Shown here piece after piece: positions 13,198 to 22,063 of a stretch of 34,950 bases of DNA. The notes beneath the pieces were generated by a model. That model was not told the DNA's origin. It saw only the letters and a program-made list of their open reading frames with translations, and did no database searches. This DNA is from a virus (taxonomy: Duplodnaviria > Heunggongvirae > Uroviricota > Caudoviricetes): IMG/VR virus record IMGVR_UViG_2541047119_000014; one strand, given 5' to 3'. Numbering within the stretch: position 1 is the stretch's first letter; the number at the start of each line of letters is the position of its first letter. A program made the translations under genes and the position numbers.

Positions 13198-13779
13198 ATG
13201 GACAAGCCGACGCGTGGACGCGTGCGCAAGGTGGATTTGCTCCCCGACAGCATCCGTAAGCCACTGCTGGAAATGCTGCGTGAAAAACGTCTGACGCAGG
13301 TCCAGATACGCGAGGAAATCAACCGTCTGATCCGTGAGGCGGGCCTGCCGGAAGAGCAGCAGCTTTCACCGGCGGCCATCAGCCGGGAAGCCTCCCGTAA
13401 TGAGCTGATTGCCCGTAACCTGCGTGATTTACGCGAGCAGACAAAAGCCATGATGGCCGAACTGGGGGACAAGCCAACCGGTGAAACCACTGCATTGATC
13501 CTGGAGATGTCCCGCGCCCTGATGTACCGCCGTCTGCGTGCCGCGACCGAATCCCTGAACAGTGACAGCGACGTGGATATGCGTCTTATTAAGGACATCC
13601 TCCTGTCAGCACAGCGTGCGGAAAGTGCCGCCGAGCGCAGCATTAAGCGTGAAAAAGAAATCCGGGCCGCATTTGCTGAAGAGATGGCAAACGCCGTCAC
13701 CGACGAGCTGCGCGGCGTGGACGGGATGAGTGAACAGCTTGAGTCCCGTATTAAGGGGATTCTGTTGGGTAAAGCCTGA
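13198..13779 (+). CDS. Putative terminase small subunit (Mu gp27-like)
   Basis: 193 aa, immediately upstream of and overlapping the large terminase; charged helical protein. Confidence 0.65.
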   Translation: MDKPTRGRVRKVDLLPDSIRKPLLEMLREKRLTQVQIREEINRLIREAGLPEEQQLSPAAISREASRNELIARNLRDLREQTKAMMAELGDKPTGETTALILEMSRALMYRRLRAATESLNSDSDVDMRLIKDILLSAQRAESAAERSIKREKEIRAAFAEEMANAVTDELRGVDGMSEQLESRIKGILLGKA

Positions 13780-15443
13780 TGAATAACGCCGAAGAACTCT
13801 CCCCCTTACTGACGAATACCGTCTCCACCCGCAAAATTGATCTGGCCGGTGAAAAAGCCCTGCTGGGCGTGGATGTGCCGGACAGCCTTGATTTGCCCGG
13901 TGATATGCCGGTATTTCTGGATTATCAGGCCCGCTGGTTTGAGGATGAAAGCGAGGTCTGCATCGCGGAAAAATCCCGCCGCACCGGGCTTACCTGGGCG
14001 GAAGCCGGGCGTAACGTCATTACCGCCGCAAAGCCTAAGCGGCGTGGTGGCCGCAATGTGTTTTATGTGGGGTCAAAGCAGGAGATGGCGCTGGAATATA
14101 TTTCTGCCTGCGCACTGTTCTCCCGTGCCTTTAACCAGCTGGCAGATGCTGATGTGTATGAGCAGACCTTCTGGGATCGGGATAAAAAAGAAGAAATTCT
14201 GACCTACATGATCCGCTTTCCGAACAGTGGATTCAAAATTCAGGCACTGTCTTCCCGTCCGTCAAACCTGCGCGGCCTTCAGGGGGATGTGGTGATTGAT
14301 GAAGCCGCGTTCCACGAGTCACTGGATGAGCTTCTCAAGGCGGCAATGGCGCTCACCATGTGGGGCGCGCGCGTGCGTATTATCTCCACGCATAACGGCG
14401 TCGATAATCTGTTTAATCAGTACATTCAGGAAGCCCGCGAAGGGCGCAAGGATTACAGCGTCCACCGCATTACCCTGGATGATGCCATTGCGGACGGGCT
14501 GTACCGTCGTATCTGTTATGTCACCGGCCGCGAATGGTCACCGGAAAGCGAGCAGAAGTGGCGTGATGATCTCTACAAAAACGCCCCGACCCGTGAGGAT
14601 GCCGACGAGGAATACGGCTGTATCCCGAAAAAATCCGGCGGTGCCTATATTCCTCACGCACTTATTGAAATGGCGATGATCCGCGACATCCCGATTCTGA
14701 CGTTTGAAGCCCCGGACGACTTCATCAGCCGTGCCGCATGGCTGCGTGAATCGGAGGTTTTAACCTGGTGTGAAGAACATTTAAAACCGCTTTTAGAGGC
14801 GTTAAATCCCCGTTCCCGCTTCAGCTTCGGGGAAGACTTTGCCCGCACCGGTGACCTCTCCTGCTTTGTGCTGCTGGAAATCACTGAATCCCTGGCAAAA
14901 CGCGAGGTGTTTCGCGTGGAGCTGCGCAACCTGCCGTATGCCCAGCAGGAGCAGGTGATGATGTACATCCTGACCCGCGTTCCGGCGCTGGTCGGTGCGG
15001 CGTTCGACGCCACCGGTAACGGCGGCTATCTGGCCGAAGCCGCGCTGCTGGCCTTTGGCCCGGACATCATCGACTGCGTGATGTTATCGCCGAAGTGGTA
15101 CGGCGAGTGGATGCCAAAACTGAAGGCCGAGTTTGAGGATCAGAATATCCTCATCGCCCGCCATCAGACCACGCTTGATGATTTGCGCCATGTGAAGGTG
15201 GTGAACGGTATCCCGCAAATCGACAAGGGGCGCACGAAGGACCAGAACGCAACGGCTGTGAACGCCCGCCGCCATGGCGATTTTGCCGTGGCGCTCTGTA
15301 TGGCAAACCGGGCGTCATACATGGAGGGCTTCATCCTGGATAAATCAGCCTGTCAGGCGCTGCCGGAGCGGTTGCGGGCAATGGAGGGCGGTTATCGTGA
15401 TGACGATGAGGCATATCATGAATTTGATCGGGGGTGCTGGTAG
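13779..15443 (+). CDS. Terminase large subunit (Mu gp28-like)
   Basis: 554 aa; position and size; ATPase/nuclease-type segments (VFYVGSKQ, VVIDEAAF). Confidence 0.88.
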   Translation: MNNAEELSPLLTNTVSTRKIDLAGEKALLGVDVPDSLDLPGDMPVFLDYQARWFEDESEVCIAEKSRRTGLTWAEAGRNVITAAKPKRRGGRNVFYVGSKQEMALEYISACALFSRAFNQLADADVYEQTFWDRDKKEEILTYMIRFPNSGFKIQALSSRPSNLRGLQGDVVIDEAAFHESLDELLKAAMALTMWGARVRIISTHNGVDNLFNQYIQEAREGRKDYSVHRITLDDAIADGLYRRICYVTGREWSPESEQKWRDDLYKNAPTREDADEEYGCIPKKSGGAYIPHALIEMAMIRDIPILTFEAPDDFISRAAWLRESEVLTWCEEHLKPLLEALNPRSRFSFGEDFARTGDLSCFVLLEITESLAKREVFRVELRNLPYAQQEQVMMYILTRVPALVGAAFDATGNGGYLAEAALLAFGPDIIDCVMLSPKWYGEWMPKLKAEFEDQNILIARHQTTLDDLRHVKVVNGIPQIDKGRTKDQNATAVNARRHGDFAVALCMANRASYMEGFILDKSACQALPERLRAMEGGYRDDDEAYHEFDRGCW

Positions 15444-19109: not shown

Positions 19110-20234
19110 ATGAAGACGAAAAACACGCCCAAACTTGCTTATGCCATTCTGAATGCCATCAGCCTGTCCGCAGACGGGGACGGTGACTGGTGTCAGATCA
19201 TGCCAGCCGGTCGGGTAAAGGCCCGTGACGGTCGCCCGGAAAAACCGGCCGAGGGCTGGCTGATCAACCATGCAGCCGTTGAGCGCATGGTCTCCCGGGT
19301 TGTGGCGCTCAATCAGCCGGTGAAAATTGACTACAACCACCAGACCCTGATTAAGGGGCATCAGGCACCGGCTGCCGGTTTTGTGATGGCCTCACCGGAG
19401 AATTTTCGCTTCAGTGAAGAGCGTGGCTTCGAGGTGCGCCCGAAGTGGAACCCTCCGGCCCTTGAACATCTGCGTAATAACGAATTCCCCTGGTTTTCAC
19501 CGGTGATTGGCTATGACGAGAACACCGGCGAACCTGTCGAACTTCGGATGCTGGCTATTACCGGTGACCCCGGTCTGACCGGCATGAATCCTGTCGCCGC
19601 GCTGTCGGCGGATGACCTTTATAACGCCTTAAACCCTCCTTTAAAGGATACCTCCATGAATGAGCAATTACGCCAGTTGCTGACGGCGCTCGGTCTGACC
19701 GTGGCTGACGGTGACGAATTTACGCCGGAGCTGGGCACGGCGGCGCTGTCTGCCCTCACCGGGATCAAAACCCGTGCGGATGCACACGACAACCTGAAAA
19801 CACAGGTCGCCAGTCTGTCGGCAGAGCTGGAAACCGCAAAAGGCACACCGGCTGGCGGCAGTATTGATCTGACGAAATACGTGCCCGTTGAAACGTATAA
19901 CGCCCTGCGTACCGAATACGTTGCGCTGTCGGCGCAGCACGGCAGCACCACGCTGGAGCAGGTGCTGGACAAGGCTGAATCCGAAGGGCGCATCTTCAAA
20001 AGCGAACGCGGCTATCTGGAACAACTGGGCGGGCAGATTGGCGTTGCGGCACTTTCTGCACAGCTTGACGCCCGCCAGCCGGTTGCGGCCCTGACCTCTC
20101 TTCAGACCGACACCGTGACCGTGCCGGATAAAAAGACTGCCACCGCTGCGCTGTCGGCTGAAGATATCGCGGCCGCCAAACTGCTGGGTAAAACCGAAGC
20201 CGAGTTCCTGAAAATGAAAGAGGAAATGCAATAA
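19110..20234 (+). CDS. Head maturation protease/scaffold (Mu I-like; a nested Z scaffold start is likely)
   Basis: 374 aa directly upstream of the major head gene; Ala-rich C-terminal half typical of a scaffold. Confidence 0.8.
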   Translation: MKTKNTPKLAYAILNAISLSADGDGDWCQIMPAGRVKARDGRPEKPAEGWLINHAAVERMVSRVVALNQPVKIDYNHQTLIKGHQAPAAGFVMASPENFRFSEERGFEVRPKWNPPALEHLRNNEFPWFSPVIGYDENTGEPVELRMLAITGDPGLTGMNPVAALSADDLYNALNPPLKDTSMNEQLRQLLTALGLTVADGDEFTPELGTAALSALTGIKTRADAHDNLKTQVASLSAELETAKGTPAGGSIDLTKYVPVETYNALRTEYVALSAQHGSTTLEQVLDKAESEGRIFKSERGYLEQLGGQIGVAALSAQLDARQPVAALTSLQTDTVTVPDKKTATAALSAEDIAAAKLLGKTEAEFLKMKEEMQ

Positions 20235-21181
20235 TGCCTACCCCGATTACACCGGCGATGATCACCGCCCTGATGACGGGCTACCGTTCTGATTTTCAGG
20301 CCGGGATGTCCATGGCCCCGTCGCAGTATAAAAAAATTGCGATGACCGTGCCCTCCACATCGAAATCCAACACCTACGGCTGGCTGGGGCAGTTCCCGCA
20401 GTTCCGTGAGTGGATCGGCTCCCGCGTCATCGAGAAGATGAAAGCCTATGGCTATGCCATCGTGAACAAAACTTTTGAAGGCACTGTCGCCATTAGCCGC
20501 GATGACTTCGAAGACGACAACCTCGGTATTTATTCCCCGTTGTTCCAGGAGATGGGGCGCGCTGCGGCGGTACAACCGGATGAGCTGGTCTTTGCTGCCC
20601 TGCGTGACGGGATCAGTGCGGCCTGCTATGACGGTCAGAACTTCTTTGATACCGAACATCCGGTTTACCCTAAAGTGGATGGCTCCGGGGATGCGCAGAT
20701 GGTCAGCAATATGTTTGTGGCAAAAACCGGCTCTGTCGGCGCACAGGCTGATTACAGCGGTCCGGCCTGGTATCTGCTTGACTGCTCCCGCGCGGTAAAA
20801 CCGCTGATTTATCAGGATCGCCGTAAGGCTGAACTGGTTGCCCAGACCAAAGTCGATGAAGGTCGCGCATTCACCGATAACGAATTTGTGTTCGGTGCTT
20901 CCGCCCGTCGCAATGTGGGCTACGGCTTCTGGCAGATGGCCTACATGATGCAGTCACCGCTGACGCTGGATGCACTGTGGCACGGCTGGTCAGCCATGCG
21001 CGAATTTACCGCTGACGGTGGCCGCAAACTCGGCATCAAACCCACCCATATTGTTGTCCCCACCTCGCTGGAAAAACAGGCGGTGCAGCTGCTGGAGCGT
21101 GAACTGTTCGCAGACGGAAACGCAACCGTCTCTAACGAGATGAAGGGCAAGCTGGAGCTGGTTGTCGCGGATTATCTGTAA
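20234..21181 (+). CDS. Major head (capsid) protein (Mu T-like)
   Basis: 315 aa; position after I; start overlaps the I stop. Confidence 0.88.
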   Translation: MPTPITPAMITALMTGYRSDFQAGMSMAPSQYKKIAMTVPSTSKSNTYGWLGQFPQFREWIGSRVIEKMKAYGYAIVNKTFEGTVAISRDDFEDDNLGIYSPLFQEMGRAAAVQPDELVFAALRDGISAACYDGQNFFDTEHPVYPKVDGSGDAQMVSNMFVAKTGSVGAQADYSGPAWYLLDCSRAVKPLIYQDRRKAELVAQTKVDEGRAFTDNEFVFGASARRNVGYGFWQMAYMMQSPLTLDALWHGWSAMREFTADGGRKLGIKPTHIVVPTSLEKQAVQLLERELFADGNATVSNEMKGKLELVVADYL

Positions 21182-21224
21182 ACGGTGAGCCGGGTTTACG
21201 GCCCGGCCCCTGCGGAGGGCAAAT

Positions 21225-21647
21225 ATGAATGAACATCACACTGTGGCAGCAACAGATGATTCAGGTCTTCAGGTCAGTGGTGACAATTCTGTCACGGTGC
21301 TGGCAGAAGTGCGTTGCAGTCGTTCGGCGTTTCGTCGTGCGGGGTTTCTGTTCACGCGTGGACGTCAGCAGGTTGAGGTCACCCCGGAGCAGCTTGCCCG
21401 ACTGGAGGCGGAGCCATGCCTCACTGTGCGAATACTACAGACGTCTGCTGATGATGCGGGGAGCGTGGCGGGTGTGGTTCATGCAGTGGCCGGTACAGAT
21501 TTAGCCGAAGCCGAAGCCGAAGCCGAAGCCGAAGCCGAAGCCGAAGCCGAAGCCGAAGCCGAAGCCGAAGCCGAAGCCGAAGCCGAAGCCGGACAGGATG
21601 CTCCCCGGAAAAAGACCGGTAACAAAGCGAAACAGGCCCGTGCATGA
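21225..21647 (+). CDS. Hypothetical head-region protein with a 29-residue (AE)n repeat
   Basis: ATG at 21225 with GGAGGG RBS; the repeat is in frame and the ORF continues to a basic C-terminal tail. Confidence 0.65.
   Translation: MNEHHTVAATDDSGLQVSGDNSVTVLAEVRCSRSAFRRAGFLFTRGRQQVEVTPEQLARLEAEPCLTVRILQTSADDAGSVAGVVHAVAGTDLAEAEAEAEAEAEAEAEAEAEAEAEAEAEAGQDAPRKKTGNKAKQARA
21504..21590 (+). repeat. Perfect hexanucleotide microsatellite (GCCGAA) x 14.5
   Basis: Read directly: 87 bp of uninterrupted gccgaa units inside the 21225-21647 ORF. Confidence 0.97.
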
Positions 21648-22063
21648 ATTACGCCACTGAAACCGATATGCGGGCGCGTTACCGCGAGGATTTGCTCAGG
21701 CCGTTACTGGCTGTGCCCCGTTCGGATGAGCCGGACACGCGCAAGCTGAACCGGGCGCTGACAGATGCGTCAGCCCTTATCGACAGCTATCTGTCCGCCC
21801 GTTACACGCTGCCGCTGGAGGTTATCCCGGCTGTTCTTGTTCAGCACTGTTGCGCGATTGCCTTTTATTACCTGTGCGATCAGCGAGCCTCCGATCAGGC
21901 GCGTGACCGTTACCGTGAAGCGCTGGCCTGGCTGAAAGATGTCATGAACGGCAATGTGCCGGTCGGTGTGGATACGAACGGTGCAGCCCCTGAATCCGGG
22001 GATTTACCACTGGTTCAGTCTGATGCAGCGGTATTCGGGCGCAACCAGAAGGGCTTCGTATGA
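21644..22063 (+). CDS. Head-tail region protein (Mu gp36-like)
   Basis: 139 aa; conserved position. Confidence 0.7.
   Translation: MNYATETDMRARYREDLLRPLLAVPRSDEPDTRKLNRALTDASALIDSYLSARYTLPLEVIPAVLVQHCCAIAFYYLCDQRASDQARDRYREALAWLKDVMNGNVPVGVDTNGAAPESGDLPLVQSDAAVFGRNQKGFV

What the first reader, a model, noticed from the sequence alone, without database searches (positions are those of the whole stretch)
21504..21590. Perfect (GCCGAA)x14.5 microsatellite in frame within a head-region gene
Eighty-seven base pairs of uninterrupted hexamer repeat encode a 29-residue (AE)n tract in the gene between the major head protein and the gp36-like gene. Perfect repeats of this length are rare in enterobacterial phage genomes and are prone to slipped-strand mispairing. 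Because the unit is 6 bp, copy-number changes stay in frame and would vary linker length rather than switch the gene off.
Basis: seen in the sequence. Interest (0 to 1): 0.6.

Follow-up and report, generated by a model that had tools for sequence, protein, structure and literature searches.

The report
Known EHEC typing repeat (EHC-5)
The perfect GCCGAA repeat is real and its copy number varies widely between strains, but it is already known as "EHC-5", a marker that public-health laboratories use to fingerprint Shiga-toxin-producing E. coli, and it lies in a floppy, length-tolerant part of a small Mu-like phage protein.

Summary
Window 21504-21590 is a perfect (GCCGAA)x14.5 repeat. It is in frame in a 140-aa ORF (21225-21647) between the Mu-like major head gene T and the adaptor gene gp36, and it encodes a 29-residue (AE)n tract. 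Chance expectation is about 1e-44.

The locus is already known. The published primers for MLVA locus EHC-5 (Izumiya et al. 2010 scheme) bracket the repeat at 21432-21454 and 21608-21630. The element is an Sp18-type Mu-like prophage of E. coli, and the Sakai orthologue is ECs_4975.

Copy number is highly polymorphic:
- A sample of 55 complete-genome matches gave 15 alleles, from 1.5 to 20.5 units, and every length difference was a multiple of 6.
- Two cattle isolates that are identical over 20,336 flanking bases differ by exactly one unit.

The host protein is the Mu gp35 / HI1506 homologue. It has a confidently folded FluMu_N domain (residues 25-77). This is followed by a predicted disordered (AE)n tract and a short basic tail, in place of the family's usual C-terminal domain.

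Best explanation: ordinary slipped-strand mispairing in a permissive linker. This changes length and charge but never switches the gene off. Interest is low.

The parts
21504..21590 (+). Perfect (GCCGAA)x14.5 tandem repeat, the EHC-5 VNTR. It encodes (AE)14-A, residues 94-122 of the gp35-like protein.
   Evidence: Copy number is polymorphic in relatives.
21225..21647 (+). Gene for the Mu gp35 / HI1506-related protein (140 aa). It is the orthologue of ECs_4975 in Sakai prophage Sp18.
   Evidence: ORF list. Pfam FluMu_N 37.2 bits against a cut-off of 25.8. phrog_3622 E=3.9e-80. PDB 2OUT E=3e-5. Mu gene 35 is 51% identical over residues 23-63. Sakai annotation.
21297..21455 (+). Folded N-terminal FluMu_N domain (residues 25-77, beta-beta-alpha-beta).
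   Evidence: AlphaFold2 block pLDDT 86-95. Pfam match to residues 36-72. Foldseek top hit 2OUT, probability 1.00.
21591..21644 (+). Short basic C-terminal tail, GQDAPRKKTGNKAKQARA (net charge about +5). It replaces the roughly 50-aa C-terminal domain of Mu gp35 and HI1506.
   Evidence: pLDDT below 50.
21432..21454 (+). Binding site of the EHC-5 forward MLVA primer (exact match).
   Evidence: Primer from S5 Table of PMC10062581. Match.
21608..21630 (-). Binding site of the EHC-5 reverse MLVA primer. There is one mismatch at the primer's 5' base. The site is exact in Sakai. The predicted amplicon in this window is 199 bp.
21214..21219 (+). Shine-Dalgarno sequence GGAGGG, 5 nt upstream of the ATG at 21225.
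   Evidence: Read directly from the sequence.
21644..21647 (+). ATGA stop/start overlap with the gp36 adaptor gene (translational coupling). It is preserved in every allele read.
   Evidence: Annotations.

Best explanation
The repeat is the variable-number tandem repeat already used as MLVA locus EHC-5 for typing enterohaemorrhagic E. coli. It lies in the gene 35 homologue of an Sp18-type Mu-like prophage.

Mechanism: during DNA replication the 6-bp units misalign (slipped-strand mispairing) and whole units are gained or lost. This could happen during replication of the host chromosome or during Mu-type replicative transposition.

Because the unit is two codons (Ala-Glu), every change is in frame. 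The ORF, its basic tail and the translationally coupled gp36 start all stay intact.

The tract lies after the folded FluMu_N domain in an intrinsically disordered stretch. That stretch tolerates anything from 1 to at least 20 AE dipeptides, so variation accumulates essentially neutrally.

Shown here: the identity of the locus, the polymorphism, frame conservation, a one-unit change on an identical background, and the predicted disorder. Inferred: slippage as the mutational mechanism, which is the established model for such loci, and the near-neutrality of the variation.
For: Identity of the locus:
- The EHC-5 primers (S5 Table of PMC10062581) match at 21432-21454 exactly and at 21608-21630 with one mismatch. 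The reverse site is exact in Sakai Sp18.
- In the Japanese typing data EHC-5 is 0 (absent) in most O157 clades and variable where present (Table 2). That fits a locus on a mobile prophage found in only 228 of 5,426 complete genomes.

Polymorphism:
- All 55 sampled full-length matches differ from the window by multiples of 6 bp. They give 15 alleles from 1.5 to 20.5 units, with Nei diversity 0.90.
- Read directly, the alleles have 1.5, 8.5, 13.5, 14.5, 17.5 and 20.5 perfect units on conserved flanks with intact ORFs.
- Both tail subtypes (…QARA and …QAKKARA) include long and short alleles.
- Strains 113 and 140 have 0 mismatches in 20,336 flanking bases but 14.5 versus 13.5 units.

Permissive context:
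- AlphaFold2 gives pLDDT 86-95 for residues 25-77 and 37-47 for residues 79-140.
- Relatives have a variable linker at this position.
- The near-repeatless allele is common: 8 of 55 sampled matches, and cluster P0054 has 150 member sequences.
- Sakai Sp18, with 8.5 units, is predicted intact and its DNA is efficiently packaged (PMC2669165).
- Impure alleles (AEVE, AETE, AGAG) exist, so the residues themselves are not tightly constrained.

Mechanism:
- The repeat DNA has no hairpin potential and folds worse than all 200 shuffles on both strands. That fits simple register slippage.
- Slipped-strand mispairing is the accepted mechanism for 6-bp O157 VNTRs (PMC3777172).
Against: - Neutrality is inferred, not measured. 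Net charge of the protein changes from about 0 to -19 across observed alleles, which might not be functionally silent.
- No mutation rate for this particular locus was found in the papers I could read.
- The original Izumiya 2010 paper is not in the library, so the identification rests on the primer sequences reproduced in PMC10062581.
- The function of gp35 is unknown, so 'tolerant linker' cannot be tied to a defined activity.
- Length differences in the 55-genome sample were assigned to the repeat by inference. This was verified by reading only seven alleles.
Confidence: 0.85

Rival explanations
1. Adaptive tuning locus. Repeat-length variation is selected because it sets the length and negative charge of a tether between the FluMu_N domain and the basic tail. 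This would modulate gp35's still unknown role, for example at the head-tail connector or towards packaged DNA, and give the phage population useful heterogeneity.
For: Net charge spans about 0 to -19 and length spans 114-152 aa across natural alleles. Long, perfectly pure alleles persist in both tail subtypes. The gene is conserved, well translated (SD) and coupled to the adaptor gene gp36. One Mu record calls gp35 a connector-complex protein.
Against: The allele spectrum is broad and flat, with no obvious optimum. Near-repeatless alleles are common. Impure variants are tolerated. Relatives in other genera have no repeat here. gp35 was not seen in Mu virions (PMC11915804). No phenotype is known.
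Confidence: 0.08
2. Phase-variation switch. The repeat turns gene 35 on and off by frameshifting, and through translational coupling gp36 as well, like classical contingency loci.
For: It is a long, pure simple-sequence repeat inside a coding region that is coupled to the next gene. One database protein, P0072 (a single member), reads part of the region in another frame (KP repeats) and then returns to frame.
Against: The unit is 6 bp, so slippage cannot shift the frame. All 55 sampled length differences are multiples of 6. All alleles read are intact.
Confidence: 0.01
3. The repeat acts at the nucleic-acid level, for example as a structured DNA or RNA element, a protein-binding array, or a translational pause that controls gp36 expression, and the encoded peptide is incidental.
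For: The unit is kept perfectly pure at the DNA level in long alleles. The tract lies about 55 nt upstream of the coupled gp36 start.
Against: Neither strand has any folding potential. Copy number ranges from 1.5 to 20.5 without loss of the gene arrangement. Purity is what recent slippage expansions would produce anyway. GCC and GAA are ordinary E. coli codons (my own knowledge, not tested here).
Confidence: 0.02
4. Assembly or sequencing artefact that inflates a short repeat.
For: Simple repeats can be mis-assembled.
Against: Alleles of 13.5-20.5 units occur in many independently finished complete genomes. The locus is sized routinely by PCR fragment analysis (PMC10062581).
Confidence: 0.01

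Closest known systems
MLVA locus EHC-5 of the Izumiya et al. 2010 scheme for EHEC O157/O26/O111 (Microbiol Immunol 54:569, as cited in PMC10062581)
   Same: It is the same DNA. Both published primers flank the repeat in the correct orientation. The unit is 6 bp. Copy number is variable, and null alleles occur where the prophage is absent.
   Different: Nothing substantive. This window carries a 14.5-unit allele and one SNP under the 5' base of the reverse primer. The typing papers I could read do not discuss which protein the repeat encodes.
Other 6-bp VNTR loci of E. coli O157:H7 used in PulseNet MLVA (O157-3, -9, -10, -17, -19, -25, -37)
   Same: Short perfect hexamer arrays that mutate by slipped-strand mispairing in single or multiple units, with larger alleles being more unstable (PMC3777172).
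   Different: The PulseNet loci are scored in O157 strains generally. EHC-5 sits on a transposable Mu-like prophage, so it shows presence/absence variation and can occur at up to 4 places per genome.
Bacteriophage Mu gp35 / Haemophilus FluMu HI1506 (PDB 2OUT; Pfam FluMu_N PF17891)
   Same: Homologous N-terminal domain. Same gene position between major head gene T and adaptor gp36. Same ATGA-type overlap with gene 36.
   Different: Mu gp35, HI1506 and most relatives have a C-terminal domain of about 50 residues after a short non-repetitive linker. The Sp18-type protein lacks that domain and instead has the (AE)n microsatellite tract plus an 18-21-residue basic tail.
Simple-sequence contingency loci (phase-variable genes of Haemophilus, Neisseria and others)
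   Same: A hypermutable simple-sequence repeat inside a coding region.
   Different: Contingency loci switch expression on and off through units that are not multiples of three, or through promoter spacing. Here the unit is two codons and only protein length changes.

Membership tests
MLVA locus EHC-5 | Flanked by the published EHC-5 forward and reverse primer sites in convergent orientation | tested here: met
   Forward primer exact at 21432-21454. Reverse primer at 21608-21630 on the minus strand with 1 mismatch, exact in Sakai. Primers taken from S5 Table of PMC10062581.
MLVA locus EHC-5 | Short tandem repeat whose copy number differs among EHEC strains | tested here: met
   15 alleles (1.5-20.5 units) in 55 sampled complete genomes. 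Seven alleles read directly.
MLVA locus EHC-5 | Null (0) alleles in many O157 strains and presence across several EHEC serogroups | tested here: met
   The gene is present in 228 of 5,426 complete genomes, including O157, O26, O111, O103, O121, O145 and O91 strains. EHC-5 is 0 in most O157 clades (PMC10062581 Table 2).
MLVA locus EHC-5 | Genomic location and repeat unit as stated in the original description (Izumiya et al. 2010) | not testable with these tools
   The original paper is not in the held library. Only its primers, as reproduced in PMC10062581, could be used.
Mu gp35 / HI1506 (FluMu_N) family | FluMu_N domain above Pfam's gathering score | tested here: met
   PF17891, 37.2 bits against a cut-off of 25.8, residues 36-72. 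phmmer to 2OUT E=3e-5. Foldseek top hit 2OUT.
Mu gp35 / HI1506 (FluMu_N) family | Gene located between major head gene T and adaptor gene 36 of a Mu-like morphogenesis module | tested here: met
   The wider Mu context (MuA, MuB, Gam, Mor, portal) is.
Mu gp35 / HI1506 (FluMu_N) family | Second, C-terminal domain of HI1506 / Mu gp35 | tested here: not met
   No homology beyond residue ~92. The alignment shows the C-domain only in P0082 and other relatives. Residues 79-140 are low-confidence coil. The protein is therefore a truncated, N-domain-only variant of the family.
Phase-variable contingency locus | Repeat changes shift the reading frame or promoter spacing so that expression switches on and off | tested here: not met
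   6-bp unit. All 55 length differences are multiples of 6. ORFs are intact in all alleles read.
Capsid decoration / cement protein | Protein bound to the outer capsid lattice of the virion | not testable with these tools
   Indirect evidence is negative. Mu cryo-EM found no cement proteins and did not resolve gp35 (PMC11915804). No solved virion component matched the model.

The most novel reading that the evidence does not exclude
Repeat-length variation in the gp35-like protein could be a selected tuning device rather than neutral noise. By changing tether length (114-152 aa) and net charge (about 0 to -19) between the folded FluMu_N domain and the basic tail, slippage would give Mu-like phage populations heritable, rapidly reversible heterogeneity in a step of head completion, head-tail joining or DNA retention. 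That would be an in-frame contingency locus in a phage morphogenesis gene.
Probability: 0.06. Interest if true: 0.5.

Novelty: already known. Interest (0 to 1): 0.12.

Why it matters
The practical value is already being used. The locus helps discriminate outbreak strains of Shiga-toxin-producing E. coli in routine MLVA typing.

Three modest points come out of this analysis:
- The marker lies on a transposable, apparently active Mu-like phage. It can therefore be absent, multi-copy or horizontally acquired, which matters when EHC-5 differences are interpreted epidemiologically.
- A SNP under the reverse primer exists in some prophage variants.
- The repeat encodes a variable poly-(Ala-Glu) tract in the uncharacterised gp35 homologue, and natural alleles show that this region tolerates very large changes in length and charge. 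That is a small clue that the C-terminal half of this protein is not a rigid structural element.

None of this opens a new biological question by itself.

Tried and rejected
- EHC-6, the companion MLVA locus whose presence partly tracks EHC-5 in the typing tables. Its primers are not in the window, and the forward primer is not in Sakai Sp18. It lies elsewhere.
- Hairpin or other structure in the repeat DNA as the cause of instability. Both strands fold worse than all shuffles. Rejected.
- Functional assignment by fold. Foldseek against the PDB returned only 2OUT; all other hits had E above 0.3. No virion component matched.
- Literature on HI1506 and Mu gp35. A full-text search for 'HI1506' found nothing. 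PMIDs 29767456 and 17400915, cited in the Mu record, are not held.
- A possible 'seed' of the repeat in Mu gp35's linker (…TLAEAGG… against …DLAEAGQ…). BLASTP aligns only residues 23-63, and the Mu DNA there is GCTGAGGCT, not GCCGAAGCC. This is too short to count as evidence.
- Full-text searches for 'Sp18' with 'MLVA', and for 'GCCGAA' with 'VNTR', gave nothing relevant.
- The exact source of the window. The best complete-genome match over 14 kb is only 99.1% (O157:H7 strains Z1835 and Z1836), so the source strain is not in that collection.

Full report
**1. The observation**

The window carries 14 complete GCCGAA units followed by GCC at exactly 21504-21590. Tandem Repeats Finder reports 21503-21591, period 6, 14.8 copies, 100% matches and no indels. 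With the window's composition, about 1e-44 such runs are expected by chance. The longest lag-6 self-match run elsewhere in the window is 8 bases, against 83 here.

The repeat is in frame in ORF 21225-21647 (+), 140 aa. It encodes (AE)14-A at residues 94-122. The ORF has a strong Shine-Dalgarno sequence (GGAGGG, 21214-21219) and ends in an ATGA overlap with the next gene.

**2. Context**

The window is almost a whole Mu-like prophage. Pfam identifies MuA transposase, MuB, Gam, Mor, portal, MuF, gpG, protease/scaffold gpI, major head gpT (20234-21181), gp36 adaptor (21644-22063), gp37, DUF2635, sheath, tube and tape measure.

It belongs to the family of prophage Sp18 of E. coli O157:H7 Sakai. 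The orthologous gene there is ECs_4975. The best 14-kb match among complete E. coli genomes is 99.1%.

**3. The locus is already known**

The S5 Table of Hirai et al. 2023 (PMC10062581) reproduces the primers used by Japanese public-health institutes for the MLVA scheme of Izumiya et al. 2010.
- The EHC-5 forward primer matches the window exactly at 21432-21454.
- The reverse primer matches at 21608-21630 on the minus strand, with one mismatch at its 5' base. It matches exactly in Sakai.
- The primers bracket the repeat, giving a 199-bp amplicon here.

In that paper EHC-5 is 0 in most O157 clades and variable where present. That is the expected behaviour of a marker on a mobile prophage carried by only 228 of 5,426 complete E. 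coli genomes.

**4. Copy-number variation**

- In a systematic 'spread' sample of the 229 matching records, 55 full-length matches differ from the window by multiples of 6 bp without exception. They give 15 alleles between 1.5 and 20.5 units, with Nei diversity 0.90.
- I read seven alleles directly: 1.5 (ECP19-798 and Z852), 8.5 (Sakai), 13.5 (strain 140), 14.5 (strain 113 and the window), 17.5 (JNEC-KY176) and 20.5 (F1 E4). All are perfect arrays on conserved flanks, with an intact ORF and the same overlap with gp36.
- Both C-terminal tail subtypes (…QARA and …QAKKARA) include short and long alleles, so expansion and contraction recur within each subtype.
- Cattle isolates 113 and 140 are identical at all 20,336 flanking positions compared and differ by exactly one unit. 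The repeat therefore changes faster than anything else in 20 kb of the prophage.
- Database proteins also show impure alleles (AEVE, AETE, AGAG), and a near-repeatless form is common.

**5. The protein**

Pfam finds a FluMu_N domain: 37.2 bits against a cut-off of 25.8, residues 36-72. The protein matches the NMR structure of Haemophilus FluMu HI1506 (2OUT) by sequence (E=3e-5, N-terminal part only) and by fold (Foldseek top hit). Gene 35 of Mu, D108 and SfMu is homologous over residues 23-63 at 51% identity.

AlphaFold2 predicts a confident beta-beta-alpha-beta domain for residues 25-77 (pLDDT 86-95). Residues 79-140, which include the (AE)n tract and the basic tail, are low-confidence coil (pLDDT 37-47).

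Distant relatives and Mu gp35 itself have the layout FluMu_N, variable non-repetitive linker, then a C-terminal domain of about 50 residues. The Sp18-type protein has lost that C-terminal domain. In its place it carries the microsatellite tract and an 18-21-residue basic tail.

Across natural alleles the protein's calculated net charge runs from about 0 to -19.

**6. Function of gp35**

The function is not known.
- One Mu GenBank record labels gp35 a head-to-tail connector complex protein.
- The 2025 cryo-EM study of Mu could not resolve gp35, lists it only as a probable structural protein that may be connector-related, and found no cement proteins on the capsid (PMC11915804).
- Sakai Sp18, with 8.5 units, is predicted intact and its DNA is efficiently packaged (PMC2669165).
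- Sp18-type prophages sit at many different chromosomal sites, occur at up to four places per genome and are found inside Stx phages (PMC7430833). The element is therefore active.

**7. Mechanism**

The best-supported explanation is ordinary slipped-strand mispairing of a 6-bp array. This is the accepted mechanism for O157 VNTRs (PMC3777172). The repeat has no hairpin potential on either strand, so simple register slippage is sufficient.

Because the unit equals two codons, slippage cannot shift the frame. The gene and the coupled gp36 start are never disrupted.

The tract lies in a disordered, compositionally loose region that tolerates 1 to 20 or more AE dipeptides, so length variants persist. 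Identity, polymorphism, frame conservation and predicted disorder are shown. Slippage and near-neutrality are inferred.

**8. Rivals**

- A selected length/charge tuning role cannot be excluded. However, no length optimum is visible, repeatless alleles are common and relatives lack the repeat. I give it about 0.06-0.08.
- On/off phase variation is excluded by the unit size and by all observed alleles.
- A nucleic-acid-level role has no support.
- An assembly artefact is excluded by many finished genomes and by routine PCR sizing.

**9. Verdict**

The feature is an already known and routinely used typing marker (EHC-5), and its behaviour is that of an ordinary bacterial VNTR.

The one mildly new descriptive point is that the marker encodes a variable poly-(Ala-Glu) tract in a truncated, N-domain-only variant of the Mu gp35 / HI1506 family. 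Interest is low.

Noticed in passing
window 21189-21207: There is a GC-rich hairpin (GCCGGG, 7-nt loop, CCCGGC) directly after the stop codon of the major head gene T and before gene 35. It has no T-run. The Mu record annotates a predicted terminator at the equivalent T/35 junction. It might lower expression of downstream genes relative to the abundant head protein.
   Followed up: partly
window 21630 (residue 136 of the ORF): A G-to-A difference from Sakai (Glu to Lys in the basic tail) lies under the 5' base of the EHC-5 reverse primer. It is probably harmless for PCR, but it shows that the primer site is polymorphic among prophage variants.
   Followed up: yes
window 21591-21647, and relatives P0082, P0085, L008:856-1266: The Sp18-type gp35 homologue lacks the C-terminal domain of about 50 residues ('…GKPKV..V…LG..VT..QIDAAL') that is present in Mu gp35 and in relatives from other genera. 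It ends instead in a short Lys/Arg-rich tail.
   Followed up: partly
protein P0072 (E. coli, 119 aa): One database variant reads '…VAVWWFMQPAGTKPKPKPDEGYSRKK…'. The region around the repeat is translated in another frame (KP repeats) and then returns to the normal tail. This could be a double frameshift or a sequencing error. The cluster has a single member.
   Followed up: no
proteins P0086 (1815 aa), P0087 (789 aa), P0099 (1026 aa); Some large proteins in the representative library contain 6-8 separate stretches that match the FluMu_N domain. The small domain therefore also occurs as a tandem array in much bigger proteins. P0091, P0096 and P0100 carry two copies each.
   Followed up: no
protein P0083 (154 aa): The first 41 residues are 98% identical to the gp35-like protein, and the rest carries Pfam PF10076. 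This looks like a deletion or fusion joining gene 35 to a distant gene in one 37-kb contig.
   Followed up: no
E. coli complete genomes: Sp18-type Mu-like prophages occupy many different chromosomal positions, occur at up to 4 places per genome, appear once on a plasmid, and are found inserted inside Stx1a- and Stx2c-converting phages (LC727895, LC727881). A strain could therefore carry several EHC-5 alleles at once.
   Followed up: partly
window 421-1134 (-) and 13779-15443 (+): The ORF in the repressor position (237 aa, against 176 aa for ECs_4943 in Sakai) has no Pfam match at E<=0.001. Neither does the 554-aa ORF that corresponds by gene order to Sakai ECs_4969, annotated 'DNA packaging protein'.
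   Followed up: no
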